Shown: piece by piece, positions 1,734 through 64,000 of the stretch
How the letters are laid out: each line of letters opens with the position of its first letter
Numbering within the stretch: the stretch's first letter is position 1
Source of the DNA: Nitrospirota bacterium
GTDB lineage: Bacteria; Nitrospirota; Thermodesulfovibrionia; UBA6902; DSMQ01
Reading direction: 5' to 3'
Assembly (NCBI GenBank): GCA_016208965.1
Contig: JACQXB010000037.1
Location: forward strand, 110 to 64,109
DNA: 64,000 nucleotides
Translations under genes and position numbers: made by a program
Notes under the pieces: model-generated
Told to the model about the DNA's origin: nothing
The model's database searches: none
Seen by the model: the letters and a program-made list of their open reading frames with translations, nothing else

Positions 1734-2370
1734 GTGACGCGCCACGCCGATTACAGGAAGTGGCTGAGGTATTATCTGGATTTCCGGGGCAAATATTCGC
1801 TTTCTGATTCCAAATCAGAACAGGTGCGTTTGTTTGTCGAAAAATTGAAGAAAAAGAATCAGATGCCCGAACAGCAAAAGCAGGCAGCGCATGCAATCTC
1901 GCTCTTCTTTGAGTCGCAACTGCAAAAAAATTACAATGAAACCCCTCTTGTTAAAATCAATACTGACAAAAAATTAAAAGTAACATCCCCCTCCACCTTC
2001 AGGAATCATAACTCCCCCTATCCCCCTCTTATCTTAAGAGGGGGCGGCGAAGCCGGGGGCGTTACTATCAAGGGGGAATCTTCCAATGGCTTATCAAGGG
2101 CTGAGACAGCATTGCACTCATCATTACGGCCTTCAGTTGCATCTTCACCGAATAAGGCACGATTTAATGAATGGCGTTGTCTGGCTAAATCCGGTTTTTC
2201 GGCATGGGACAAGGTTATTGACACGCTGGCCGCAGAGATCAAGACGCGCCACTATTCCCGAAAAACGCTCAAGACATACGCGGACTGGAGCCGCAAGTTT
2301 CAGGGCTACCCACGCAACAAGCTCGCCTGACTCTGTGAGAGCGAGATCCCTGACATATTTACTGAGTTGA
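1734..2370 (+). pseudogene. Tyrosine recombinase (integron-integrase-like) N-terminal SAM-like domain remnant; catalytic domain absent
   Basis: ADYRKWLRYYLDF...QQKQAAHAISLFF and WDKVIDTLAAEIKTRHYSRKTLKTYADWSRKF resemble the N-terminal core-binding domains of IntI-type recombinases. The frame breaks near 2320-2330 (the LTYL motif continues in another frame). No R..HxxR..Y catalytic region follows. A proline/glycine palindromic element is inserted at 2013-2056. Confidence 0.45.
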
Positions 2371-2711
2371 TATGACTTTCCCCGTGATACGATTTTAGAG
2401 CCTGCCCACGACTCCAGTCGAACCACGTGAGATTCTGGAAATCTTTGAGTATCCGGTTGCTCATTTGGTAGATGATAACATGTTTGACTTGTTTCAACCA
2501 ATACTATTGATAGTCGAGATAAGAGGAAAATGTGAAGGCGATAGTTTAATCAAAATGGTTACCCCTCCCCTCAATCGTTCGTCGTGAGCTGATTTTCTAT
2601 CTCTATTTTTCGGAAAAATGCATCTCCTTGTCTTTTTATAAAGACATTGCTTATTATAAAAGCTAACAACGCATCATGGTTTTAATATCAACAGGAGTGG
2701 CAATATAACTC

Positions 2712-3461
2712 ATGTCAGGACATTCCAAATGGGCGCAGACAAAACACAAGAAGGCTGCTGTTGACTCAAAAAGAGGAAAACTTTTCTCAAAGGTCTCAAA
2801 AGAGATAATAGTTGCGGCTAAAATGGGAGGCGGCGACCCTAATTCTAATTCAAGATTAAGGAGCGCCATTGAAAAGGCAAGGGATATAAGCATGCCTTCT
2901 GAAAATATAAAAAAGGCAATAATGAGAGGCACAGGCGAGCTTCAGGGTGCATCTTACGAAGAGATTGTTTATGAAGGCTATGGTCCGGGTGGAGTTGCCA
3001 TAATGATGGAGGTATTTACTGATAATAAAAACAGGACTGTATCTGAGATACGCAATATCATGTCCAAATACGGTGGAAATATGGGAGAAACAGGCTGTGT
3101 CTCATGGATGTTTGACAAAAAAGGATATATACTCATTGGGAAAAAGCAAACCGATGAGGATACTTTAATGTCATTAACACTTGATGCAGGTGCAGAAGAC
3201 ATTAAAAATGACCCTGCTGAGGAAAACTACGAGGTTATCACTGCACCAGAGGACATGAAGGCAGTAAAAGAGGCTATTGAGAAGGCAGATATAAAGGTTA
3301 ACCTTGCGGAAATAACCATGCTTCCTAAAAACTACATAAGGCTTGAGTCATATGATGCGGATAAGATGCTTAAACTTATGGAAGCCCTTGAAGACCATGA
3401 TGACGTGCAGAATGTCTATGCAAATTTTGATATACCTGATGAGGTAATAGCTAATAGATAA
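2712..3461 (+). CDS. yebC: YebC/PmpR family DNA-binding transcriptional regulator
   Basis: Starts [27 protein letters not shown]; 249 aa; lies upstream of ruvC as in many bacteria. Confidence 0.95.
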
Positions 3462-3464
3462 ACT

Positions 3465-3498
3465 CTAAAGCTTATAGCTTATTAGCTTATAGCTTTAG
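3465..3498. terminator. Hairpin made of AGCT-heptamer words downstream of yebC
   Basis: ctaaagcttatagcttattagcttatagctttag folds with 8+4 bp stems around an internal loop. No clear T-tract. Confidence 0.4.
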
Positions 3499-3516
3499 GG
3501 CTTGAGGTTATAAAAG

Positions 3517-4038
3517 ATGCGTGTTTTGGGAATAGACCCGGGTACTATTTGTTGCGGTTATGGAATAGTGGCAATTCACAGCGAAGGTAGAAGTGGGAGC
3601 AAAGCTCCCATTCATATAGCCTCAGGCAAGATAAAGTTGAATAAAAACGATACACTCCCAGAACGGTTAAAGGCTCTCTATGATTCTCTTGAGGCTGTAA
3701 TTGCTGAATATAAGCCGTCGCGTATGTGCCTTGAGAAAATTTTTTACCATAAAAGCATTCGCTCTGCCTTTACACTTGGAGCAGCACGCGGTATAGTTAT
3801 GCTTTTGTCAGCAGAAAACGCTATACCAATTTTCGAGCATAATTCAACAGAACTAAAGCAGGCAATTACAGGATATGGAAGGGCAGAGAAACATCAGGTA
3901 GAAAGTATGATTAAACGAATTTTAAATATTAACTCCAAGCTATCGCCAGATGCAGCCGATGCCCTTGCACTGTGCGTTTGTCATATAAATTCATCCAGAT
4001 GGATGAAAGATGCAGGATACGAGATGCACGATAAATAA
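3517..4038 (+). CDS. ruvC: Crossover junction endodeoxyribonuclease RuvC
   Basis: N-terminus MRVLGIDPGT..GYG; conserved YGRAEKHQV and ADALALCVCH motifs; part of the ruvCAB cluster. Confidence 0.9.
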   Translation: MRVLGIDPGTICCGYGIVAIHSEGRSGSKAPIHIASGKIKLNKNDTLPERLKALYDSLEAVIAEYKPSRMCLEKIFYHKSIRSAFTLGAARGIVMLLSAENAIPIFEHNSTELKQAITGYGRAEKHQVESMIKRILNINSKLSPDAADALALCVCHINSSRWMKDAGYEMHDK

Positions 4039-4047
4039 ATTTCAAAA

Positions 4048-4135
4048 TTAGCATTTTAGCTTTTAGCTTTTAGCTCTTAGCTTTTAGCTCTTAGCTTATC
4101 GCTTATTAGCTTATTAGCTTATAGCTTATCGCTAT
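4048..4135. repeat. Tandem degenerate heptamer array (TTAGCTT/TTAGCTC/TTATCGC), about 12 units
   Basis: ttagcattttagcttttagcttttagctcttagcttttagctcttagcttatcgcttattagcttattagcttatagcttatcgctatt, read directly. Confidence 0.8.
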
Positions 4136-34809: not shown

Positions 34810-36647
34810 TGCAGCTTACAGAGAATGCAATTAGAGTTTTAAAGACCCGTTATCTCCTTAAAGATGAACAGGGCAACATCATAGAGACTCCGGAGGAGCT
34901 TTTCAGAAGGGTTGCAAGAACTGCTTCAGAGCCCGAAGTGCTTTATGGCGGAAACCCTCGTGAATGGGAGGAGAGATTCTATGAGCTCATGAACAATCTC
35001 CTTTTCCTTCCGAACACTCCTATGCTGATAAATGCTGGCAAGGAAATCGGACAGCTTGCTGCATGCTTTGTCCTTCCTGTGGATGATTCAATGAAAAGTA
35101 TTTTTGATTCACTGAAAAATGCCGCATTGATTCTCCAGAGCGGGGGAGGCACAGGCTTTTCCTTTTCAAGGTTAAGACCAAGGGCCGACCTTGTAAAATC
35201 AACAGGGGGGATAGCAAGTGGGCCTGTATCATTCATGAGGATATATAACACTGCAACAGAGGTCATTAAACAGGGAGGGGCAAGAAGGGGTGCAAATATG
35301 GGCATCCTGAGGATTGACCATCCTGACATAATTGAATTCATAAAGATCAAGAGAGATGAGAAGGAATTGACAAATTTCAATATCTCTGTTGCAGTAACAG
35401 ATGCCTTTATGGAGGCACTGAAGAAGAACACTGAGTATGACCTGATAAATCCCAGAAACAACCGTGTAACAGGACAACTCAATGCCCGTGATGTATTTAA
35501 AGAAATAGTTGAAAGCGCATGGGAAACAGGCGATCCAGGGCTTATATTCATTGACAGGATTAACAGAGACAACCCAACGCCCCATATCGGAGAGATAGAA
35601 AGCACAAACCCCTGCGGAGAACAACCACTTCTTTCTTTTGAGGCATGTGTTCTTGGGTCAATTAATTTATCGAGGATGGTGAAGCCTGATACAAGATTCA
35701 AGATTCAAGATTCAAGTAAAAAAAACGAACCCTCACTCAGTGCACAGAACACAGAGCACAGAACACAGATTAATCCCCCCTCACCCCCCTTTGCTAAAGG
35801 GGGGATGGGGGGATTTTCATACGAGATTGATTGGGAGCTTTTAGCTTCTGTTGTAAAGATTTCCGTTCGGTTTCTTGATAATGTCATAGATGCAAATAAC
35901 TACCCTGTGCCTGAGATAGAGAAGATGCATAAAGGGAATAGAAAAATCGGGCTTGGTGTTATGGGATGGGCTGATATACTTATAAAATTGGGCATCAGGT
36001 ATAACTCAAAAAAGGCATTTAACCTTGCCCGTCAGGCAATGAAATTCATAAGGGATAACGCAAGAGAAGCTTCCTTAGGGCTTGCGAGGGAACGTGGAAC
36101 ATTCCCGAATTTCAAGGGTTCTATTTATGACACACCTGAGTTTAATGCAAAAGGCGGACTACGGAATGCAACCACAACAACCATTGCACCAACAGGAACA
36201 CTCTCCATAATCGCAGGCTGTTCAAGTGGCATAGAGCCAATTTTTGCAATAGCTTACAAGAGACGTGTAATTGATACAACGCTTTATGAGATACATCCTT
36301 ATTTCTTAGAGGTTGCAAAAAACATGGGATTCTATAGTGCTGAACTTATTGAAAAAGTCTCTAAAAAAGGCTCATTAATAGGATTCAAAGAAGTCCCTTT
36401 AGACGTAAGAAGGCTATTTATAACTGCCCATGGGGTACCATTTAAAGACCACATAGAGGTTCAGTCAGCATTTCAGGAATTTACAGATAACGCAGTCTCA
36501 AAGACTATAAACCTAAAGCAGAGGACTACGAGAGATGATGTTGCAAAGGCATTCGTACTTGCCTATGAAAAAGGATGTAAGGGGATTACTGTTTTTAGAT
36601 ATGGCTCCAAGAGGGGTCCGTTGATAAAGTTTGAAGAAGGAGACTAA
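34806..36647 (+). CDS. nrdJ: Adenosylcobalamin-dependent (class II) ribonucleotide reductase, with a ~43-aa in-frame repeat-derived insertion
   Basis: VLKTRYL, LPNTPMLINAG, ACFVLPV, GGGTGFSFSRLRP, STNPCGEQPL, TIAPTGTLS, KTINL. Insertion at 35688-35818. Confidence 0.9.
   Translation: MMQLTENAIRVLKTRYLLKDEQGNIIETPEELFRRVARTASEPEVLYGGNPREWEERFYELMNNLLFLPNTPMLINAGKEIGQLAACFVLPVDDSMKSIFDSLKNAALILQSGGGTGFSFSRLRPRADLVKSTGGIASGPVSFMRIYNTATEVIKQGGARRGANMGILRIDHPDIIEFIKIKRDEKELTNFNISVAVTDAFMEALKKNTEYDLINPRNNRVTGQLNARDVFKEIVESAWETGDPGLIFIDRINRDNPTPHIGEIESTNPCGEQPLLSFEACVLGSINLSRMVKPDTRFKIQDSSKKNEPSLSAQNTEHRTQINPPSPPFAKGGMGGFSYEIDWELLASVVKISVRFLDNVIDANNYPVPEIEKMHKGNRKIGLGVMGWADILIKLGIRYNSKKAFNLARQAMKFIRDNAREASLGLARERGTFPNFKGSIYDTPEFNAKGGLRNATTTTIAPTGTLSIIAGCSSGIEPIFAIAYKRRVIDTTLYEIHPYFLEVAKNMGFYSAELIEKVSKKGSLIGFKEVPLDVRRLFITAHGVPFKDHIEVQSAFQEFTDNAVSKTINLKQRTTRDDVAKAFVLAYEKGCKGITVFRYGSKRGPLIKFEEGD
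35692..35815. repeat. Composite repeat inside nrdJ: (ATTCAAG)x3, (CACAGAR)x4, PPFxKGG palindrome
   Basis: caagattcaagattcaagattcaag (35692-35716); cacagaacacagagcacagaacacag (35743-35768); aatcccccctcacccccctttgctaaaggggggatggggggatt (35772-35815). Confidence 0.85.
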
Positions 36648-41986: not shown

Positions 41987-42576
41987 ACAACGGGATTGTA
42001 GAGAACCTCATAAATGAACTTTCAAAGCTTCCCGGCATCGGGAGAAGGACAGCACAACGGCTGTCTTTTTTTATAATGGGTATGTCCAAAGACGATGCAC
42101 ATGCCATAGCCCATGCCATCATTGAAATAAAAGAAAAAGCCCGCTTCTGCGAACAGTGCTTTAATATTACAGAAGAAGAAATCTGCTTTATATGTAGAAA
42201 CCCTTTAAGGGATAAAAGCAAGATATGCGTTGTTGAAGAACCGAGCAATCTAATAGTCATAGAAAGGACAAAGGCATATAAAGGGCTCTATCATGTGCTC
42301 CTCGGGGCACTTTCACCAATAGACGGAGTCACCCCAGAAAAATTAAAAATCACTGAATTAGTAAGCAGGATAAAAAACGGGAACTTTACAGAGGTTATTA
42401 TAGCCACAAATCCTAATACAAAGGGTGAAACCACTTCGCAATATCTATCACAGGTTTTAAAGCCCCAGGGTGTAAAAGTAACCCGTATTGCCTATGGTCT
42501 TCCCATAGGCGGGGACATTGAATTTGCAGATGAGGTAACCCTTTCAAAAGCCATTGAAGGAAGAAAAGAGCTGTAA
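41983..42576 (+). CDS. recR: Recombination protein RecR
   Basis: LINELSKLPGIGRRTAQRL, zinc finger CEQC...CFIC, Toprim VVEEPSNL...YGLPIGGDIEFAD. Confidence 0.95.
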   Translation: MNNGIVENLINELSKLPGIGRRTAQRLSFFIMGMSKDDAHAIAHAIIEIKEKARFCEQCFNITEEEICFICRNPLRDKSKICVVEEPSNLIVIERTKAYKGLYHVLLGALSPIDGVTPEKLKITELVSRIKNGNFTEVIIATNPNTKGETTSQYLSQVLKPQGVKVTRIAYGLPIGGDIEFADEVTLSKAIEGRKEL

Positions 42577-43696
42577 TTCCTTGACCCCCCTACTTCACAA
42601 AAGAAATCTGACCATACTCCATACAGAGTCCTCTGAAGGTTGGGGAGGGCAGGAAATAAGGATACTCCATGAATCCCTTGGAATGATTAAAAGAGGGCAC
42701 AGGGTAATTATTTCTGCGCCTGTGCAAAGCAATATCTTCAAGAGGGCAAGGGAATCAGGTATCAACACCATTTCTGCAAACTTTCAAAGAAATAATCCGT
42801 TTTCTATAAGCAAGATGTTATCCATAATTCGCAGGGAAAAACCCGATGTTGTCAACACTCACAGCTCATCTGACAGTTGGGTTACAAGCATTGCTGCAAG
42901 GCTCTCAAGTGTAAAGCCAAAGATAGTAAGAACACGACACCTCTCAACGTCAATAAGCAGAGCTATGCTTAGCAGGTTAATATATAACATATTACCTCAC
43001 GCAATAATAACAACTGGGGAGAAGATAAGACAGGGGATGATAAATGACAATGGATTTAATGCTGCTCAGATTTTCTCCATACCTACAGGAGTGGATTTGG
43101 AACGATTCAATCCATTAAATGTTAGACCTGCCTTTCAGACAGAGGGCTTTTCAATAGGGATGATTGGGGTTCTAAGGAGTTGGAAGGGACACAGATATTT
43201 CATAGAGGCAATACCTGATATATTGAAACATATCCCTGATGCCATATTTTACATTGTTGGGGATGGACCACAGCGTGAAAATATCAAAAATCTTATAAAT
43301 GGATTATCTCTTGGAGAAAAAGTCTTTATGCTCGGGCATAGAGAAAATATACCAGAGGTTTTAGCCTCCCTTGATGTGGTTGTTCAGCCGTCATACGCAA
43401 ATGAAGGCGTGCCTCAATCCATCCTTCAGGCACTGGCAATGGAAAAGCCCGTGGTAGCATCTGATGCAGGAGCTATAAGAGAAGTAATTATTGATAGAGA
43501 AACAGGGCTCCTCATTAAATCTAAAAACCCCTCGCAACTTGCAGAAAAGGTCATTGAACTTTATAAAAACCCGGGTTTGATGGTAAAATTAGCCATGAAT
43601 GGAAAGACATTGGTTGAAAAGGAATATCCTTTACAAAAAATGTTAGACAAAGTAGAGACGCTATATTATATCATTTTGAACCGACATAACACATGA
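42554..43696 (+). CDS. Glycosyltransferase family 4
   Basis: ILHTESSEGWGGQE N-terminus; C-terminal EGVPQSILQALAMEKPVVASDAGAIREVI (ExxxxxxxE region). The true start is probably downstream of 42554. Confidence 0.85.
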   Translation: MKEEKSCNSLTPLLHKRNLTILHTESSEGWGGQEIRILHESLGMIKRGHRVIISAPVQSNIFKRARESGINTISANFQRNNPFSISKMLSIIRREKPDVVNTHSSSDSWVTSIAARLSSVKPKIVRTRHLSTSISRAMLSRLIYNILPHAIITTGEKIRQGMINDNGFNAAQIFSIPTGVDLERFNPLNVRPAFQTEGFSIGMIGVLRSWKGHRYFIEAIPDILKHIPDAIFYIVGDGPQRENIKNLINGLSLGEKVFMLGHRENIPEVLASLDVVVQPSYANEGVPQSILQALAMEKPVVASDAGAIREVIIDRETGLLIKSKNPSQLAEKVIELYKNPGLMVKLAMNGKTLVEKEYPLQKMLDKVETLYYIILNRHNT

Positions 43697-44091
43697 CCAT
43701 AGTAAAAGATATAAAAGAATCACTCACTCCAATATTTGAAAAATATAGAGGTCTTGTTGTGTTTGCCTATCTATTTGGTTCAGCAGCACTTAAGGAAACA
43801 ACTCCCTTAAGTGACATAGATATAGCGGTTTATTTTGGAGATGTTAAAGAAAGGGCATTGTTTGATCTTAAGTTTTCTTTTCAGGCTGATGTTTGCAGGG
43901 CACTGAAGAGGAGTGACGTGGATGTCCTCGTATTGAATACTGCAAGGAACATTGTGGTGCTTGATGAAATAATCAGAAAAGGTATACTACTGTTTGATGA
44001 AGATAAAGGCCTAAGGGAAGATTTTGAACTAACCGTCCTTCACCGCACAATAGATTTTAAAACGCAGAGACTTGCTATTATAGGAGTTTAA
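43693..44091 (+). CDS. MNT-type nucleotidyltransferase antitoxin (MntA)
   Basis: LFGSAALKETTPLSDIDIAV; 4-nt overlaps with both neighbours. Confidence 0.85.
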   Translation: MTIVKDIKESLTPIFEKYRGLVVFAYLFGSAALKETTPLSDIDIAVYFGDVKERALFDLKFSFQADVCRALKRSDVDVLVLNTARNIVVLDEIIRKGILLFDEDKGLREDFELTVLHRTIDFKTQRLAIIGV

Positions 44092-44495
44092 TGGAAAGGA
44101 TTTACCAGAAAATTGGAAAGATCAAAGAATATCTTTTGGTAATAAGATCAATTAAAGATGATTGTATGTCCCGCTTTAACACAGATATTATATATCGTGG
44201 TGCGTTACTTCACTATCTTTACTTACTGTCAGACAATTGTATCTCACTTGCAGAGATTGTAATTAAACAAAAAAACCTAAGACCTCCTCAATCATATCAT
44301 GATGCAATTGACATATTGGGAGAGAATAAAATACTGGAACCCCTTTTTGCTTATGAATTTGCAAAAATCGCAGGATTTAGAAACTTTCTTGCCCATGATT
44401 ATGAAAAAATAGAGATAGAATTTATATGTAAAGAAATAATGTCCCGGCTGGATGACATTGATTTATTTATAAAACAAATCGCATCCTCATTCTGA
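44091..44495 (+). CDS. HepT (DUF86, HEPN) toxin
   Basis: GFRNFLAHDY carries the HEPN RxxxxH motif. 134 aa, immediately downstream of the MNT gene. Confidence 0.85.
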   Translation: MERIYQKIGKIKEYLLVIRSIKDDCMSRFNTDIIYRGALLHYLYLLSDNCISLAEIVIKQKNLRPPQSYHDAIDILGENKILEPLFAYEFAKIAGFRNFLAHDYEKIEIEFICKEIMSRLDDIDLFIKQIASSF

Positions 44496-44531: not shown

Positions 44532-45683
44532 TTGAATACGCATGAATTTAAAAACATAAAAAAAATCCTTGTCATAAAACTCCGCCATATCGGGGATGTG
44601 CTTCTTAGTGTCCCTGTATTCAGGGCATTAAGGAAAAACTTCCCTGCCGCCCATATCTCTGCACTTGTAAATTCAGGAACAGAAGAGGTATTAACAGGCA
44701 ATCCACTCATTAATGAAATAATAGTCTTTGACAGAGGTATCAAAAAACTAAACTCCTTACAGAGATATTTAAAGGAGCTATCCTTCTTGAAAGTGATAAG
44801 AAAGGAAGGTTTTGATATGGCTGTTGATCTTACAAGTGGAGACAGGGCAGCAATCATATCTTTTATATCAGGGGCGAGATACAGGCTTGCATATGACCCA
44901 TGTGGGGCTGGTTTTTTAGGGAAAAGATTTTTATATACACACCTTGCTCAAAAAAACGAAAGCCAGCATATGGTATTGCAAAATCTTGATGTTGTTAGAC
45001 AGTTTGGTATTAGCACAGAAAATCTTATGGTGGATTTTTTTATTCCTGATGAAGCAAAGATGTTTGTAAAAAGAATTTTTGAGGAAAATAATATAAATCC
45101 CCCCTCACCCCCCTTTGACAAAGGGGGGCTGGGGGGATTTAGCGACAAAGTCGTCCATGTGCATCCAACATCACGATGGCTTTTTAAATGCTGGAAAGAT
45201 GAGCATATGGCAGAGGTGATAAGTTGGCTTATTGAGCAGGGAATAAAAGTCATAGTAACCTCAGCACCTAATAAAAGAGAGGTAGAAAAAGCAAAAAAGA
45301 TTTTATCTTTGGTCAGCTATCAGCTATCAGCTATCAGCTATCAGCTATCAGCTATCAGCTATCAGCTTATTGACCTGTGCGGTAAAACCACAATTAAACA
45401 GCTTGCTGCAATCTCAGAGGCATCTGACTTGTTTTTGGGGGTTGATTCAGCACCTATGCATATAGCCGCTGCAGTGGGAACTCCTGTCATTGCCCTTTTT
45501 GGCATGACAGATGAAAAGCTGTGGGGACCGTGGGGTGATAAACACCTTGTGATTAAGGAAAGGTTAAAGTGCATGCCCTGCCAGAAGGGTAATTGTGAAG
45601 GTCTCTCTCTGCGCGAATGCATGGAGGCTATAAAACCTGATACTGTTAAAAATATAATTAAAGAGAAAATAAGCAATGCATAG
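44532..45683 (+). CDS. Glycosyltransferase family 9 (LPS heptosyltransferase-like) with two in-frame repeat insertions
   Basis: ILVIKLRHIGDVLLSVPVFRALRKNFP, GVDSAPMHIAAAVGTPVIALFG. Insertions INPPSPPFDKGGLGGFS (45096-45140) and SYQLSAISYQLSAISYQL (45314-45369). Confidence 0.85.
   Translation: MNTHEFKNIKKILVIKLRHIGDVLLSVPVFRALRKNFPAAHISALVNSGTEEVLTGNPLINEIIVFDRGIKKLNSLQRYLKELSFLKVIRKEGFDMAVDLTSGDRAAIISFISGARYRLAYDPCGAGFLGKRFLYTHLAQKNESQHMVLQNLDVVRQFGISTENLMVDFFIPDEAKMFVKRIFEENNINPPSPPFDKGGLGGFSDKVVHVHPTSRWLFKCWKDEHMAEVISWLIEQGIKVIVTSAPNKREVEKAKKILSLVSYQLSAISYQLSAISYQLIDLCGKTTIKQLAAISEASDLFLGVDSAPMHIAAAVGTPVIALFGMTDEKLWGPWGDKHLVIKERLKCMPCQKGNCEGLSLRECMEAIKPDTVKNIIKEKISNA
45314..45369. repeat. 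Perfect heptamer tandem repeat (CAGCTAT)x7 plus a partial unit, in frame within the GT9 gene
   Basis: cagctatcagctatcagctatcagctatcagctatcagctatcagctatcagctta. The 7-nt DNA period gives a 7-aa peptide period (SYQLSAI). Confidence 0.95.
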
Positions 45684-46707
45684 CATTACCAATCCAGAAG
45701 ACATAAGAGAAATCTTAGTTATACGGCTAAACAAGATTGGCGATATGATATGCACAATGCCTTTGATTAAGACTTTAAAACATAATTTTAAAAATGCCCG
45801 CATCACTGTTTTAGGTGAAGAACCTTCAAGAGAAATACTTGAGAACAATAGATTTGTGGACAGCTTTATCATTTATAAAAAACCTGATACCCCTTTTAGA
45901 AACAAATATATTCAGTGCTGGCGATTGTTAATGAATTATAAGAAACAGTTTAATATCAAAAAATTCGATATGGCAATAGGTGTAAAGGGTGGCTTTTCAA
46001 GTTTTTTGGCAGTAATAACATTCCTGAGCAGGGCAGCCCTAAGAATTGGATACAGCAACCCCCAAAGGCATCCCTTAAACCTTTGCTACAATCTCCCTGG
46101 ACAGCCCATTGATTGCTCCAGACTTCATCAGGTTGATGCGTGTCTGAATCTCTTAAAACCTCTTGGGATTAAAGATGTTATAAAGGATATAACAATAGAT
46201 ATACCGCCACCCTCAAAGGATTCTGCCTTTAAATTTTTATACTCTAATGGATTAGAAGCCAACAAAAGACTAACAGTATTTAACATAAGCAATAACAGGG
46301 AAACATCCAAATGGCAATTGGAAAATTTTATAGAATTAGGAAAAGCACTTTTCAAAAGATATAACTATAAATGCATAATAACGTGCACAGCCTCTGACAA
46401 GGCTGATGCCATGAGAGTCTGTGATGAAATGAAGGATATAGGATTCTTTTATGAAACTAAAAAGCTTATGGATTTTGCAGCAATTGCCTCAATGGCAAAC
46501 TTCCTTGTTGCAGGAGATGGAGGAGCGGTGCATATAGGAGCTGCTGCAGGAACAAAGGTGGTTGCTCTCTTTGGGCAGACAAACCCTGTGATATACGGGC
46601 CATATGGCAGTCAGCATATTGTGTTAAAGGCACCTGATATTGATGTGAGGTCTATTAAGGTTGAAGATGTGCTCAGTGTAATTAAATCAAAAGGACTTCC
46701 TGCATGA
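45676..46707 (+). CDS. Glycosyltransferase family 9 (heptosyltransferase-like)
   Basis: ILVIRLNKIGDMICTMPLIKTLK, AGDGGAVHIGAAAGTKVVALFG. Confidence 0.85.
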   Translation: MHSITNPEDIREILVIRLNKIGDMICTMPLIKTLKHNFKNARITVLGEEPSREILENNRFVDSFIIYKKPDTPFRNKYIQCWRLLMNYKKQFNIKKFDMAIGVKGGFSSFLAVITFLSRAALRIGYSNPQRHPLNLCYNLPGQPIDCSRLHQVDACLNLLKPLGIKDVIKDITIDIPPPSKDSAFKFLYSNGLEANKRLTVFNISNNRETSKWQLENFIELGKALFKRYNYKCIITCTASDKADAMRVCDEMKDIGFFYETKKLMDFAAIASMANFLVAGDGGAVHIGAAAGTKVVALFGQTNPVIYGPYGSQHIVLKAPDIDVRSIKVEDVLSVIKSKGLPA

Positions 46708-47807
46708 ATAAAATTTTTATGAAAATTATACTGCTTTATTATGTCCTCACATCGCCTCTTAGAGAAAAAAGAGAGAGTGGATATAAGAAATTTTTAATTA
46801 TTGACACTCTAAGACTTGGCGATGTGGTTATGAGCACACCTGTTTTCAAGGCAATAAAAAAACAGTACCCTGATTCTTTGCTTCATGTATTGGTTAGGGC
46901 GGAGATTGCCGACCTTTTGGACAGAGAGCCGTATATTGATAAAATAATCCCGTATCACGGCAAAGAGAAAACCGGGTCGGACCTTATTAAGCTGCTCCAA
47001 CATGGGGAATATGATATATCTATAAATCTATGCGAGGGCAAGCTTAACGCTTTGATCTATGCAGCAGGCATACCGGTGAGAATAGGTTATTCCCAGAGGC
47101 ATAAATATCGTGACAGAATATTTTTAACTAACATAATCCAACAGCCGGAAACATTTCAAGGTATCCCATTATTATTTTTAAAACTTCTCGAACCCCTCGG
47201 CATTTCGAAGGCTAACAGCCGTCCTGAATTGTATCCTGATCCCATGGGTATAGAGCAGTTCAAAACGCTTTTACAGAACGGGCAACGACTTAAAATCGTT
47301 GTTCATCCGGGGGCCCGGAATGCCACGCATAGATGGCCTTATTATCAGGCTGTTATCAGAGAAATTATAAAGCGGTTCGATGCTATGGTTGTAGTTACCG
47401 GCGACAGGAGCGAAGCGATGCTTGCAGACAACATCTTATCAGGGCTTGATACAAGAAATATTATAAATTTAGTGGGAAAAACAACTATCAAAGAAATGGC
47501 TGCCCTTTGCTCTATTGCAGACCTCGTGCTCAGTAATGATACCGGGGTATCCCATATCGCATGTGCATTGGGCAGGCCGACCATAACCATTTTCGGACCG
47601 GAGCCCCCTATGCTCTGCGGAGAGCTTATGAAAAACGAAAAGCGCATTTTCGTAGAAGTGCCATGCAGAAATGATAATATATTTTTCGGACTCGAATTTA
47701 AAGATGCGAGGCGCTGCAAAAAGGAAAATTGCGATTCGCTTATATGCATGAAGAAGATAACGCCTGATATGGTATTAAAAAAAATCCAGGAACTATTGAA
47801 AAAATAA
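46704..47807 (+). CDS. Glycosyltransferase family 9 (heptosyltransferase-like)
   Basis: FLIIDTLRLGDVVMSTPVFKAIKKQYP, SNDTGVSHIACALGRPTITIFG. Confidence 0.85.
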   Translation: MNKIFMKIILLYYVLTSPLREKRESGYKKFLIIDTLRLGDVVMSTPVFKAIKKQYPDSLLHVLVRAEIADLLDREPYIDKIIPYHGKEKTGSDLIKLLQHGEYDISINLCEGKLNALIYAAGIPVRIGYSQRHKYRDRIFLTNIIQQPETFQGIPLLFLKLLEPLGISKANSRPELYPDPMGIEQFKTLLQNGQRLKIVVHPGARNATHRWPYYQAVIREIIKRFDAMVVVTGDRSEAMLADNILSGLDTRNIINLVGKTTIKEMAALCSIADLVLSNDTGVSHIACALGRPTITIFGPEPPMLCGELMKNEKRIFVEVPCRNDNIFFGLEFKDARRCKKENCDSLICMKKITPDMVLKKIQELLKK

Positions 47808-62124: not shown

Positions 62125-64000
62125 TTACTTTAAATCCCTTCTTTTGAGCTGCCTTCTTTTCCTGAAATCGTATCCAATGTATCCAACACACCCAAGCAGG
62201 GTAATACCAGAAACAAGCAAACCTATTTCAAACAACCTCTGCGGCTTAAACTCAAGCACAATCTGAAAATCCTCTCCCATTTCTGACTTCTGACTTCTGA
62301 CTTCTGACTTTATCTCAACCATGTCGACCTTGAATCTATCATCCTCAAAAACATTCAAAGCATGTTTACCTTCTTTTAAATAGATATTATTGAATTCTAT
62401 CCAATTGTCTTCTTGGTCTTTTACCTTCGGTAATTTATATATTTCCCCATCTATTTCTAATAAATTATCGCCAACCATGAAATCAGATGGTTTATATATA
62501 TACTCTCTATATCTAATAAGTTTCTTGCTCATAACTGTTTGATATACTATTTCCTTATCATCAGGATGACTCACCCCTATGGACAGGAGATTATAATTCT
62601 GCTTATCAGGAAATTTCTTTTTAACCTCCTCATATGCCCGAACAGTGAGCAGTAAATCGCCGCCGCTCATGCCAGCGGCAGGCACAAACATCTCAACCCT
62701 TTCATCCTCCTTTTCATCCCCGTCAAAATCAAAACCTAACATTACCTTCCATTCCTGTGGAAATTCTGTCCTCCATTTTCCATCCTCAAACATCCATGCT
62801 TCCCTCCTGTCTTCCATTGACGGTTTAGAAAAGTTTAATGACAATACCGGGGTCTCCTTTAAGTCAATAAATCTATTCAGGTGTAATCTGTAAACATCCT
62901 TTATATCCCACGGAATCTGCTCCGGGAAATCCACGCTTCTTAAATCACCATTTGCATCAAAGTAATAGTAGTTATCAGGCAAATAAGCAAACAATCTGTC
63001 TTTAAAATCAGCCAGTATTGGCGGTGTCTTCAAAAAAGCGATGTTTTTAAATTTAAACGGGTAAACATGTCTATCCCCTTCCCATGAGAGGTCAACTCCA
63101 TCTTTCTTTTTAAATTTAAGGCTAATTTCACTAATAGATAGCTTAGGGGCAGTCTCTTTGCCAAATATATCATTAGCCTTTTGATACAGGTTAATAACAT
63201 ATTGTTTATTATCTGCCTTCAGTCTTATCTTTTTTGTCCAGAATAATGAAAACCACTCACTTTCATTAACTAATTCAACATCTATCTCTACCTCCTGAAC
63301 CCCTAAGTCCTCCATCTCACAGGAAAATACCAGATATGGCCTTTCCTTGACGCGTATATCAGGGAATTTTTTAGTTAAAACAACACCTTCTTTCACATCT
63401 CCCTTGTTTTGAAAATATGCATTAATGTGCATACCATCTTCCGAGATATTCTGTTTGTAAGTAGTATTTAATGCCTTAACATCCCAGCCGGAAAAGGCAT
63501 CTAATAAGGCTTCTATACTACTACTACTACTACTAATAAAACCCTTTTCTATAAAATCCCTCTTCGGTTTTACCAGAGCCTTGAGAGAATAATTCCCATC
63601 TTTAGGGATATAGAATCCCTGCTCACCTATCCTGAATGGATTGTCTTTCTTAAATTTAATTTCCTTCAATTTTTCATCATTTTTAAGCATCGCTTCAACT
63701 TTTTCTTTATCTATGTAAAAGAGATAGCCAATATCCTTTGATTTAAGCATGTTCTCATATTCTTTATGCCTTTCTTTTGATACAATCACAAACTCCATTT
63801 CCTGAAATAATTCTTTAAATTTTTCCCTGTTAAAACTTTTAACTTTTAACTTTTCACTTTTAACTTCTATCTTGTGCTGCCCTTGCAACCAATCAAATTC
63901 ACCCACCTTTATCCATTTATCATCTTCCCTTCCTGCCCAACCTTTCAATTCCTCTCCATCAATACTTACCTCTAACCCCAAATCCTTAAACAACCTTGCA
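62125..64000 (-). CDS. Large secreted/membrane-anchored protein, unknown function (partial; frame open to right edge)
   Basis: More than 625 aa, with a single C-terminal TM (FEIGLLVSGITLLGCVGYIGY) followed by a basic tail. It contains two in-frame heptamer arrays (62282-62310, 63829-63866). The reading frame has no stop up to 64000. Confidence 0.6.
   Translation of the reverse strand, partial: ARLFKDLGLEVSIDGEELKGWAGREDDKWIKVGEFDWLQGQHKIEVKSEKLKVKSFNREKFKELFQEMEFVIVSKERHKEYENMLKSKDIGYLFYIDKEKVEAMLKNDEKLKEIKFKKDNPFRIGEQGFYIPKDGNYSLKALVKPKRDFIEKGFISSSSSSIEALLDAFSGWDVKALNTTYKQNISEDGMHINAYFQNKGDVKEGVVLTKKFPDIRVKERPYLVFSCEMEDLGVQEVEIDVELVNESEWFSLFWTKKIRLKADNKQYVINLYQKANDIFGKETAPKLSISEISLKFKKKDGVDLSWEGDRHVYPFKFKNIAFLKTPPILADFKDRLFAYLPDNYYYFDANGDLRSVDFPEQIPWDIKDVYRLHLNRFIDLKETPVLSLNFSKPSMEDRREAWMFEDGKWRTEFPQEWKVMLGFDFDGDEKEDERVEMFVPAAGMSGGDLLLTVRAYEEVKKKFPDKQNYNLLSIGVSHPDDKEIVYQTVMSKKLIRYREYIYKPSDFMVGDNLLEIDGEIYKLPKVKDQEDNWIEFNNIYLKEGKHALNVFEDDRFKVDMVEIKSEVRSQKSEMGEDFQIVLEFKPQRLFEIGLLVSGITLLGCVGYIGYDFRKRRQLKRRDLK

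What the first reader, a model, noticed from the sequence alone, without database searches (positions are those of the whole stretch)
45096..45369. Heptosyltransferase gene with two independent in-frame repeat insertions, one a perfect (CAGCTAT)x7 array
The GT9 ORF (44532-45683) contains the PPFDKGG palindrome at 45096-45140. About 170 nt later it contains seven perfect copies of CAGCTAT plus a partial one at 45314-45369. These translate to SYQLSAISYQLSAISYQL just before the conserved GKTTIKQLAA/DSAPMH block.

A perfect 7-nt array is a classic slipped-strand substrate. Gain or loss of one unit shifts the frame, so this could act as a phase-variation switch for an LPS-core glycosyltransferase.
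Basis: partly seen in the sequence, partly recalled or inferred. Interest (0 to 1): 0.6.

Follow-up and report, generated by a model that had tools for sequence, protein, structure and literature searches.

The report
Translated repeat DNA inside heptosyltransferase gene
An LPS-core sugar-transferase gene of an uncultured Nitrospirota bacterium reads straight through a hairpin repeat and a perfect 7x7-base tandem repeat; losing or gaining one unit would break the gene, but comparison with relatives and with the rest of the genome suggests a tolerated genome-wide repeat habit rather than a dedicated on/off switch.

Summary
The gene at 44532-45683 (+) is a GT9 enzyme of the heptosyltransferase III family. 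It carries, in frame, a 48-nt C6/G6 hairpin (45094-45141) and a perfect (CAGCTAT)x7 array plus 5-6 bases (45313-45367).

Both belong to genome-wide repeat families:
- The 1.67-Mb genome holds about 79 such hairpins and 115 perfect arrays of at least 3 units (about 460 period-7 arrays by TRF).
- 88 of the 115 arrays lie inside ORFs. Most have about 4 units, and the 20 ORFs annotated are mostly housekeeping genes (murD, aroA, cysS, purL, uvrA and others).

Both insertion sites are hot spots in orthologs. The usual occupant of site 2 is a 36-nt, roughly 4-unit array. The nearest CAGCTAT-type relatives have 4 units, so this gene most likely carries a +3-unit (21-nt) in-frame expansion.

The gene is ON at 4, 7 or 10 units and truncated otherwise. 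Among 85 ortholog loci only one, a paralog in a related genome, is exactly one unit short and frameshifted. In neuO, a proven switch, about two thirds of genomes are OFF.

My verdict is a tolerated translated repeat with an incidental risk of frameshift. A true phase-variation switch remains possible at about 25%.

The parts
44532..45683 (+). GT9 glycosyltransferase gene, putative LPS heptosyltransferase III (383 aa, TTG start), intact and open through both repeats
   Evidence: ORF list. PF01075 at E=7e-41. TIGR02201 at 216.6 bits against cut-off 170.2. AF2 model with mean pLDDT 89.4. Sequence matches to PDB 3TOV and 1PSW.
45094..45141 (+). C6/G6 palindromic hairpin element (AATCCCCCCTCACCCCCCTTTGACAAAGGGGGGCTGGGGGGATT), translated in frame as NPPSPPFDKGGLGGF in the linker between the two Rossmann-like domains ('site 1')
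   Evidence: Inverted repeat of 22-nt arms. DNA hairpin at -21.3 kcal/mol, z -5.5. About 79 regex matches in the genome. The base state is 21 nt in 43 of 80 ortholog loci and 60 nt here; 23 loci carry a C/G-run palindrome, all in frame. pLDDT is below 50 at residues 195-202.
45313..45367 (+). Perfect heptanucleotide array: (CAGCTAT)x7 at 45314-45362 plus a partial unit, translated SYQLSAISYQLSAISYQL ('site 2'). It is the longest perfect coding heptamer array in the genome.
   Evidence: TRF gives 7.9 copies at 100%. Genome-wide ranking. The site-2 insert is 57 nt here, 36 nt in L009, L013, L014 and L015 (same unit, 4 units), and 21 nt in the base state.
45372..45470 (+). Conserved donor-site block DLCGKTTIKQLAAISEASDLFLGVDSAPMHIAAA, lost from the product whenever the unit number is not 4, 7 or 10
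   Evidence: Invariant and nearly invariant columns. Simulated alleles.
42554..43696 (+). Upstream GT4 glycosyltransferase of the same LPS-core cluster (context)
   Evidence: Pfam PF00534 and PF13439. In relative L014 this gene abuts the GT9 gene directly.
45676..47807 (+). Two further tandem GT9 genes (45676-46707 and 46704-47807), overlapping start/stop with the gene studied (context)
   Evidence: Pfam PF01075, NCBIfam. The same three-GT9 order is seen in L013 and L014.

Best explanation
The heptosyltransferase III gene carries two pieces of the lineage's own repeat DNA, lodged in frame in two permissive surface regions. Neither is a purpose-built switch.

- Site 1 is the linker between the two domains. 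It holds a C6/G6 hairpin element.
- Site 2 lies after helix 248-268 and before the strand that leads into the GKTT motif. It holds a heptamer array.

In orthologs throughout Thermodesulfovibrionales, site 2 usually holds a 36-nt array of about 4 units, drawn from a small set of unit sequences. In this genome the CAGCTAT array has grown by three units (21 nt, 7 aa) through replication slippage, and only the in-frame product has been kept. The extra residues lengthen a peripheral helix and loop and are tolerated.

Because 7 is not a multiple of 3, the tract can cause a frameshift: a change of one unit truncates the enzyme before its donor-binding motifs. That is an incidental cost of the repeat, kept in check by purifying selection.

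**Shown:** the anatomy, the in-frame state, the genome-wide family, the hot spots in orthologs, the 3-unit difference from relatives, and the ON/OFF arithmetic.

**Inferred:** slippage as the origin of the expansion, tolerance of the added peptide, and a low switching rate.
For: - **The habit is genome-wide and not specific to surface genes.**
  - 115 perfect arrays of at least 3 units; 88 lie inside ORFs of at least 100 aa, and 49 of the 53 four-unit arrays are in ORFs.
  - The 20 other ORFs with the longest arrays are murD, aroA, aroC, cysS, a class-I tRNA synthetase, purL, uvrA, argJ, aconitase, cobQ, cobD, cbiG, moeA, thiE and the like.
  - No array in this genome separates two halves of a frameshifted gene.
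- **Orthologs are almost always in frame.** Among 85 loci the site-2 insert is 21 nt in the base state and most often 36 nt. The only clear frameshift at a heptamer array is one paralog.
- **The expansion is exactly three units.** CAGCTAT-type relatives L009, L013, L014 and L015 have 4 units; the window has 7.
- **The site turns over fast.** Its occupant changes at least 51 times on a tree of 120 orthologs. It alternates between several heptamer units and two palindromic elements.
- **The structure places both inserts at the periphery.** In the AF2 model (pLDDT 89.4), site 1 is disordered and site 2 is a helix extension at pLDDT 71-81. Both appear as gaps against PDB 3TOV and 1PSW.
- **A proven switch looks different.** neuO has 3-53 units and is OFF in 65.6% of 64 genomes (PMC13001214).
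Against: - The tract is perfect over 55 nt and is the longest perfect coding array in the genome. It is therefore the array most prone to slip.
- Its host is a non-essential type of gene, an LPS-core branch transferase, which is the classic kind of contingency gene.
- One paralog in related genome G012 is exactly one unit short (29 nt against 36) and is otherwise intact. It looks like an OFF state.
- Array sequence is 97-100% identical between lineages whose flanking third-codon positions are only 37-53% identical. Some process keeps these arrays homogeneous, so they are not simply inert.
Confidence: 0.6

Rival explanations
1. The array is a true contingency locus. It slips by one unit at a biologically useful rate, reversibly switching heptosyltransferase III off and on. 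This would vary the LPS inner-core branch, for example against phages or grazers.
For: - The unit length is not a multiple of 3. The gene is ON only at 4, 7 or 10 units, and OFF products lack the GKTT and DSAPMH motifs.
- Seven perfect units is the longest coding tract in the genome.
- The AGCT core is self-complementary and can form slipped hairpins, though weakly (z -1.8).
- The G012 paralog is frameshifted by exactly one missing unit and has no other defect.
- Proven precedents exist in surface-glycan genes: neuO (AAGACTC; PMC13001214) and pglE (heptanucleotide repeat; PMC7157529).
Against: - Only 1 OFF allele of this kind was seen among 85 ortholog loci, against about 2/3 OFF in neuO.
- The same kind of array sits in essential genes across the genome, always ON.
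- The length difference from relatives is exactly 3 units.
- Most orthologs carry only about 4 units, often imperfect, which is short for rapid slippage.
- No alleles with other unit numbers were found in the protein collection. This is weak evidence, since the species has been sampled once.
Confidence: 0.25
2. An active, still unidentified DNA process of this lineage writes, replaces or homogenises heptamer arrays, and the associated hairpins, at fixed permissive sites. It would draw on a shared set of unit sequences. On this reading the 7-unit array is a fresh product of that process and not of simple slippage.
For: - The CAGCTAT type needs at least 5 changes on the ortholog tree, out of 51 changes overall.
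- Array sequence is conserved at 97-100% while flanking synonymous sites are near saturation.
- The unit set is limited and polar. 70% of arrays have a stop codon on exactly one strand, against 44% expected. TCACTCG (9 arrays) and TCAGCTA (6 arrays) recur at unrelated loci.
- (CAGCTAT)3 occurs in 8 of 64 genomes of the order.
- There is a sharp genome-wide peak at about 4 units.
Against: - No enzyme or mobile-element gene is linked to the arrays here.
- Repeated slippage under selection for reading frame, plus recombination between strains, could give the same pattern.
- The tree was built with FastTree and has many weakly supported forks.
Confidence: 0.1
3. The copy number is an assembly artefact: the MAG consensus mis-states the length of the tract.
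For: The genome is a 50-contig MAG. Repeats are classic sites of assembly error. A related long-read MAG shows a probable homopolymer error in its palindrome (L043).
Against: The tract is only 55 nt, shorter than a read. The gene is perfectly in frame, and downstream conservation is intact.
Confidence: 0.05

Closest known systems
neuO of E. coli K1 prophage CUS-3 (heptanucleotide AAGACTC coding repeat) and Neisseria pglE (heptanucleotide repeat)
   Same: A 7-nt tandem repeat lies inside the coding sequence of a surface-glycan modifying enzyme. Full-length translation occurs in only one of three unit-number classes (PMC13001214; PMC7157529).
   Different: - neuO's tract is at the 5' end, has 3-53 units, and is OFF in about two thirds of genomes.
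- Here the tract is two thirds of the way into the gene and has 7 units (4 in relatives).
- Orthologs are almost always ON.
- The same kind of array sits in housekeeping genes.
- Switching has not been observed.
TAACTGA direct heptamer repeats of Beggiatoaceae, cyanobacteria and some Bacteroidetes (MacGregor 2015, PMC4679880); cyanobacterial STRR heptamers (from my own knowledge)
   Same: Tandem 7-nt units are abundant genome-wide. The units are polar, with stop codons on one strand only. The open strand of TAACTGA reads LSVISYQ. Here the unit TCAGCTA, one base from TCAGTTA, reads LSAISYQ. Rare copies inside ORFs lie in variable surface regions.
   Different: - In Beggiatoaceae all but 25 of 169 sets are intergenic, mostly just upstream of start codons, and one unit dominates.
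- Here 77% of perfect arrays are inside ORFs, dozens of different units are used, and there is a sharp peak at about 4 units.
Rickettsia palindromic elements (RPE).
   Same: A short palindromic repeat is scattered through the genome and inserted in frame into intact genes. It adds a peptide in a surface region and shows presence/absence differences between orthologs.
   Different: The C6/G6 element is much shorter (about 48 nt), and its C- and G-runs encode Pro/Gly-rich loops. I did not compare its sequence with any RPE. It occurs in Nitrospirota and not in Rickettsia.

Membership tests
GT9 / LPS heptosyltransferase III (TIGR02201, RfaQ-like) | Match to the family models above the curated thresholds | tested here: met
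   PF01075 at 140.5 bits against cut-off 22. TIGR02201 at 216.6 bits against cut-off 170.2. The E. coli RfaQ model NF007742 scores 181 bits, below its cut-off of 467, so the protein belongs to the family but is not an RfaQ equivalog.
GT9 / LPS heptosyltransferase III (TIGR02201, RfaQ-like) | Two-domain alpha/beta architecture expected of a GT-B enzyme, with the conserved C-terminal donor-site motifs | tested here: met
   AF2 model with pLDDT 89.4 and alternating strand/helix pattern in two halves. No fold search was run. Sequence alignment to 3TOV, 1PSW and 2H1F. G284, K289, D305, P308, M309 and H310 are invariant in 120 orthologs.
GT9 / LPS heptosyltransferase III (TIGR02201, RfaQ-like) | Heptosyl transfer to the LPS core | not testable with these tools
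   Context supports it only indirectly. The gene sits in a cluster with GT4 and two more GT9 genes. In relative L014 the cluster also holds ADP-heptose synthesis-type genes (PfkB plus CTP_transf_like, and an epimerase).
Simple-sequence-repeat contingency locus (phase variation by slipped-strand mispairing) | Intragenic repeat whose unit length is not a multiple of three, so that a change of one unit frameshifts the gene | tested here: met
   Simulated alleles: ON at 4, 7 and 10 units, and truncated at 268-315 aa otherwise.
Simple-sequence-repeat contingency locus (phase variation by slipped-strand mispairing) | Unit-number polymorphism, including out-of-frame alleles, within a population or between strains | not testable with these tools
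The protein cluster has one member on one contig. No same-genus genome was among the 40 relatives searched.
Simple-sequence-repeat contingency locus (phase variation by slipped-strand mispairing) | Across related genomes, alleles are spread over the reading frames (many OFF) | tested here: not met
   Of 85 ortholog loci, 82 are in frame at site 2. Only L016 is frameshifted at a heptamer array, being one unit short. L043 is a probable homopolymer error and L088 is unclear. In neuO 65.6% of genomes are OFF.
Simple-sequence-repeat contingency locus (phase variation by slipped-strand mispairing) | Repeats concentrated in surface or contingency genes and not spread over the whole genome | tested here: not met
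   88 of 115 perfect arrays lie in ORFs. The 20 ORFs annotated are mostly biosynthetic, translation and repair genes.
TAACTGA-type / STRR heptamer direct repeats | Many tandem 7-nt arrays genome-wide, with units that carry stop codons on one strand | tested here: met
   About 460 period-7 TRF arrays. 81 of 115 perfect arrays have a stop on exactly one strand, against 44% expected.
TAACTGA-type / STRR heptamer direct repeats | The unit is TAACTGA, and arrays are mainly intergenic, upstream of start codons | tested here: not met
   The unit here is TAGCTGA on the stop-bearing strand, one base different. 77% of arrays are inside ORFs (PMC4679880).
RPE-like in-frame palindromic elements | A multi-copy palindromic element inserted in frame in intact genes, with presence/absence among orthologs | tested here: met
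   About 79 copies by regex. Stable hairpin. Present in frame in 23 of 80 ortholog loci, while 43 have the empty 21-nt site.
RPE-like in-frame palindromic elements | Sequence homology to the Rickettsia RPE families | not tested
   No comparison was made. The resemblance is in behaviour only.

The most novel reading that the evidence does not exclude
Thermodesulfovibrionales may carry an undescribed process that writes or homogenises arrays of about 4 heptamer units, together with C6/G6 and GGGACAGTCCC hairpins, at fixed permissive loops of many proteins. The units would come from a limited set of 'polar' heptamers that carry TGA on one strand and are related to the TAACTGA repeats of Beggiatoaceae and cyanobacteria.

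In non-essential envelope genes such as this heptosyltransferase, expanded arrays of 7 or more perfect units would then serve as low-rate frameshift toggles. That would amount to a set of phase-variable genes in free-living groundwater anaerobes.
Probability: 0.15. Interest if true: 0.7.

Novelty: new variant of a known kind. Interest (0 to 1): 0.4.

Why it matters
If the tract really switched, it would extend heptanucleotide phase variation of surface glycans from host-adapted pathogens to free-living anaerobic Nitrospirota.

As it stands, the value of the finding lies elsewhere. One well-conserved enzyme family shows, at three fixed loop positions, rapid gain, loss and exchange of translated repeat DNA. 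Array sequence is kept nearly perfect while flanking synonymous sites are close to saturated. That gives a clean natural system for two questions: how heptamer arrays arise and are homogenised, and how much inserted peptide a GT-B enzyme tolerates.

There is also a practical point. A non-triplet repeat inside a glycosyltransferase gene is not enough to call phase variation in genomes that are full of such repeats.

Tried and rejected
- **Strain comparison.**
  - The protein cluster of the gene has a single member.
  - An exact look-up of the predicted 3-, 4-, 5-, 6-, 8-, 9-, 10- and 11-unit products among 15 billion proteins found none. This says little, because the species has been sampled once.
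  - No same-genus genome was among the 40 relatives searched.
- **OFF-state genes at arrays in this genome.** A scan for genes that adding or removing one unit would restore gave only the intergenic array at the murD 3' end. No broken gene was found.
- **Enrichment in glycosyltransferases.** Rejected. The 20 other array-bearing ORFs annotated include no glycosyltransferase.
- **The array as a structured nucleic-acid element.** Only weak AGCT:AGCT pairing was found (z -1.8).
- **Literature.** A search for heptanucleotide tandem repeats in Nitrospirae found no paper.
- **Other frameshifts in orthologs.** The L043 frameshift lies in C8/G11 homopolymer runs of the palindrome in a MAG that I take to be a long-read assembly. 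I treated it as a probable sequencing error and not as phase variation. L088 differs by 1 nt with no repeat involved and was left unexplained.

Full report
**1. What is there**

The window lies in a 1.67-Mb, 50-contig, 39.5% GC genome that is about 88% complete. Named homologs come from Thermodesulfovibrionales and Nitrospirota MAGs.

ORF 44532-45683 (+, 383 aa) is a GT9 glycosyltransferase. It matches PF01075 at E=7e-41. It scores 216.6 bits on TIGR02201, "putative LPS heptosyltransferase III", against a cut-off of 170.2. It is the first of three tandem GT9 genes that follow a GT4 gene. Relatives L013 and L014 have the same gene order, and L014 also carries ADP-heptose-type genes.

- **Heptamer array.** TRF reports a perfect period-7 array at 45313-45367, 7.9 copies. 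It consists of CAGCTAT x7 at 45314-45362 plus CAGCT, and is read as SYQLSAISYQLSAISYQL.
- **Hairpin.** A palindrome with 22-nt arms lies at 45094-45141. It folds as a DNA hairpin at -21.3 kcal/mol, z -5.5, and is read as NPPSPPFDKGGLGGF.

**2. Both are members of genome-wide families**

A loose regular expression for the C6/G6 hairpin finds 79 copies in the genome and three in the window against 0 expected.

TRF finds about 460 non-overlapping period-7 arrays, plus 120 of period 14 and 33 of period 21, with many different units. Counting only perfect arrays of at least 3 units gives 115:
- 88 lie wholly inside ORFs of at least 100 aa. My crude gene calls put the coding fraction at 0.85.
- There is a sharp peak at 4.1-4.9 units, and 49 of the 53 arrays in that class are in ORFs.
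- The array studied here (7.9 units) is the longest perfect coding array. The next longest has 5.7 units.

I annotated the 20 other ORFs with the longest arrays. They are MurD, an aminotransferase, CobQ, EPSP synthase, chorismate synthase, Cys-tRNA synthetase, ThiE, CbiG, PurL, a class-I tRNA synthetase, CobD, MoeA, aconitase, ArgJ, UvrA, a radical-SAM MqnC/CofH-type enzyme, two TPR proteins, DUF3108 and a pilin-like protein. None is a glycosyltransferase, and most are single-copy housekeeping genes.

I also scanned every array for a gene that adding or removing one unit would restore. No broken gene turned up. The only hits are the long array between murD and its neighbour.

So in this genome a translated heptamer array is common, is always in frame, and is not tied to surface genes.

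**3. The two sites are hot spots in orthologs**

In alignments of 23 and of 120 orthologs at 55-77% identity, length variation is concentrated at three places:
- after FEENNI (site 1);
- between ILSLV and DLCGKT (site 2);
- after WGPW (site 3, unoccupied in this gene).

I extracted the DNA between conserved anchors in ortholog loci taken from genomes and metagenomes.

*Site 1.* The empty state is 21 nt in 43 of 80 loci. C/G-run palindromes occupy 23 loci, all in frame. The window has 60 nt, a net gain of 13 codons.

*Site 2.* The empty state is 21 nt (KDNSKLI and similar). The commonest occupied state is 36 nt, an array of about 4 units whose unit differs by lineage: TCACTCG, TCACGCA, TCACGAT, CAGCTAT and others. 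Some arrays are perfect and some have decayed, but they stay at 36 nt. Other occupants are the C6/G6 hairpin (DELTPPHIPPLVRGGIGGVI, 60 nt) and a GGGACAGTCCC-type palindrome (GDSPDSTASPVNLGQSPL, 54 nt).

Relatives with the same unit as the window all have 36 nt:
- L009: AGCTATCAGCTATCAGCTATCAGCTATCAGCTAATT, perfect.
- L013, L014 and L015: one point change each.

The window has 57 nt. It therefore differs by exactly three units (21 nt, 7 aa). Four units is the common state and probably the ancestral one.

**4. Frame arithmetic and the phase-variation hypothesis**

I simulated alleles of 2 to 11 units. The full-length product appears at 4, 7 and 10 units. All other numbers end at 268-315 aa, before the invariant GKTT...DSAPMH block.

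There is one natural example of the OFF state. Related genome G012 has a second copy of the gene at C87:7181-8346. Its site 2 reads TCG TCACTCG TCACTCA TCACTGC TGTTA, which is 29 nt, exactly one unit shorter than the 36-nt form in L007. The frame shifts there, and the gene has no other stop.

Against a dedicated switch:
- That paralog is the only clear case among 85 loci. In 64 complete E. coli K1 genomes neuO has 3-53 units and 65.6% are out of frame (PMC13001214).
- The same kind of array sits in essential genes of this genome, always in frame (section 2).
- Most orthologs carry only about 4 units, often imperfect.

In favour: the tract is perfect, it is the longest coding array in the genome, and it lies in a class of gene that is typically dispensable.

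The decisive data could not be obtained.

**5. Structure**

An AlphaFold2 model built from the 120-sequence alignment has mean pLDDT 89.4 and pTM 0.88.
- Site 1 falls in the inter-domain linker. Residues 195-202 have pLDDT below 50, consistent with a disordered Pro/Gly loop.
- The site 2 peptide continues helix 248-268 into a short helix (272-275) before strand 279-281. pLDDT there is 71-81.

Both stretches align to gaps in PDB 3TOV and in 1PSW (WaaF). This fits tolerated, peripheral insertions. I did not measure the distance from either insert to the active site.

**6. Signs that the arrays are not inert**

- Between the window and L009, L013 and L014, the 180 nt on each side of site 2 are 72-75% identical, and third-codon positions are only 37-53% identical. 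The arrays are 97-100% identical to (CAGCTAT)n.
- On a FastTree of the 120 orthologs, with the three variable sites removed, the occupant of site 2 needs at least 51 changes. The CAGCTAT type needs 6, or 5 if only well-supported branches are counted.
- Units are reused. TCACTCG (9 arrays) and TCAGCTA (6 arrays) are the commonest in this genome.
- (CAGCTAT)3 occurs in 8 of 64 genomes of the order, against 1 for the reversed control.
- Units are polar. 81 of 115 arrays have a stop codon on exactly one strand, where 44% is expected. 60 of those 81 carry TCA on the open strand, which is TGA on the other.
- TCAGCTA is one base from TCAGTTA, the reverse of the TAACTGA repeat of Beggiatoaceae and cyanobacteria. 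The open strand of that repeat reads LSVISYQ; here it reads LSAISYQ (PMC4679880).

These facts point to ongoing turnover and homogenisation. That could be repeated slippage filtered by reading frame, recombination, or an unknown writing process. I cannot tell which.

**7. Verdict**

The tract is a genuine frameshift-prone simple-sequence repeat in an LPS-core glycosyltransferase. The comparative and genome-wide evidence makes a tolerated in-frame repeat expansion (+3 units) at a permissive hot spot the best reading, at about 0.6. A real phase-variation switch stays at about 0.25.
- Earlier notes of this scan on the same genome (hairpins and heptamers in hemC, hisF and ribonucleotide reductase) describe the same habit. 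I used them as leads. What I checked myself is the genome-wide tally, the hot-spot analysis of orthologs and the frame statistics.

Noticed in passing
window 43693-44495: An MNT (Polbeta/NTP_transf_2) and HepT-like toxin-antitoxin pair lies between the GT4 gene and the first GT9 gene. In relative L014 the GT4 and GT9 genes abut directly (1880-3004 and 3001-4113), so the pair is an insertion into the LPS-core operon.
   Followed up: partly
L016 (G012:C87:6900-8600), site 2 at about locus 1130-1160: A second copy of the heptosyltransferase III gene in a related genome is frameshifted exactly at its heptamer array. It has (TCACTCG) with 3 units instead of 4 (29 nt against 36) and no other defect. 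The same contig also carries an intact copy (L003).
   Followed up: partly
orthologs P0011, P0041, P0049, P0069 etc., after the WGPW motif (window equivalent about 45530-45545): A third insertion hot spot, empty in the window's gene, holds heptamer-encoded peptides in relatives (KSEVRSQKSEVRSQKSE, SSKLRVKSLEF, ISNFKFQISNSG). An earlier scan note (e1-2768683) reports that a (TCTGACT)x4 array at window 62282-62310, in an unrelated gene, encodes KSEVRSQKSE. TRF confirms the array there; I did not translate it myself.
   Followed up: no
whole genome (G000): Heptamer units are polar. 70% of perfect arrays have stop codons on exactly one strand (44% expected), and 60 of 81 such arrays carry TCA on the open strand (TGA opposite). 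Coding arrays peak sharply at about 4.1-4.9 units.
   Followed up: partly
G000:C37:16484-16579 (outside the window): The longest heptamer array of the genome (13.7 copies of ATCTTGC by TRF, 88% matches) lies at the 3' end of murD, between it and the next ORF. One extra unit would fuse the two frames.
   Followed up: no
L043 (CAWGWX010000025.1), site 2: In this MAG ortholog the C/G palindrome at site 2 has C8/G11 homopolymer runs and a frameshift (44 nt). This is probably a homopolymer sequencing error, but it would be worth checking as a second kind of slippery tract.
   Followed up: no
window 35688-35818: Two heptamer arrays (GATTCAA x4.1 and CACAGAA x3.9) directly precede another C6/G6 hairpin inside a long ORF. 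Arrays and hairpins often occur together as composites. The same is seen at site 2 of L017 and L018 and in many of the contexts.
   Followed up: no
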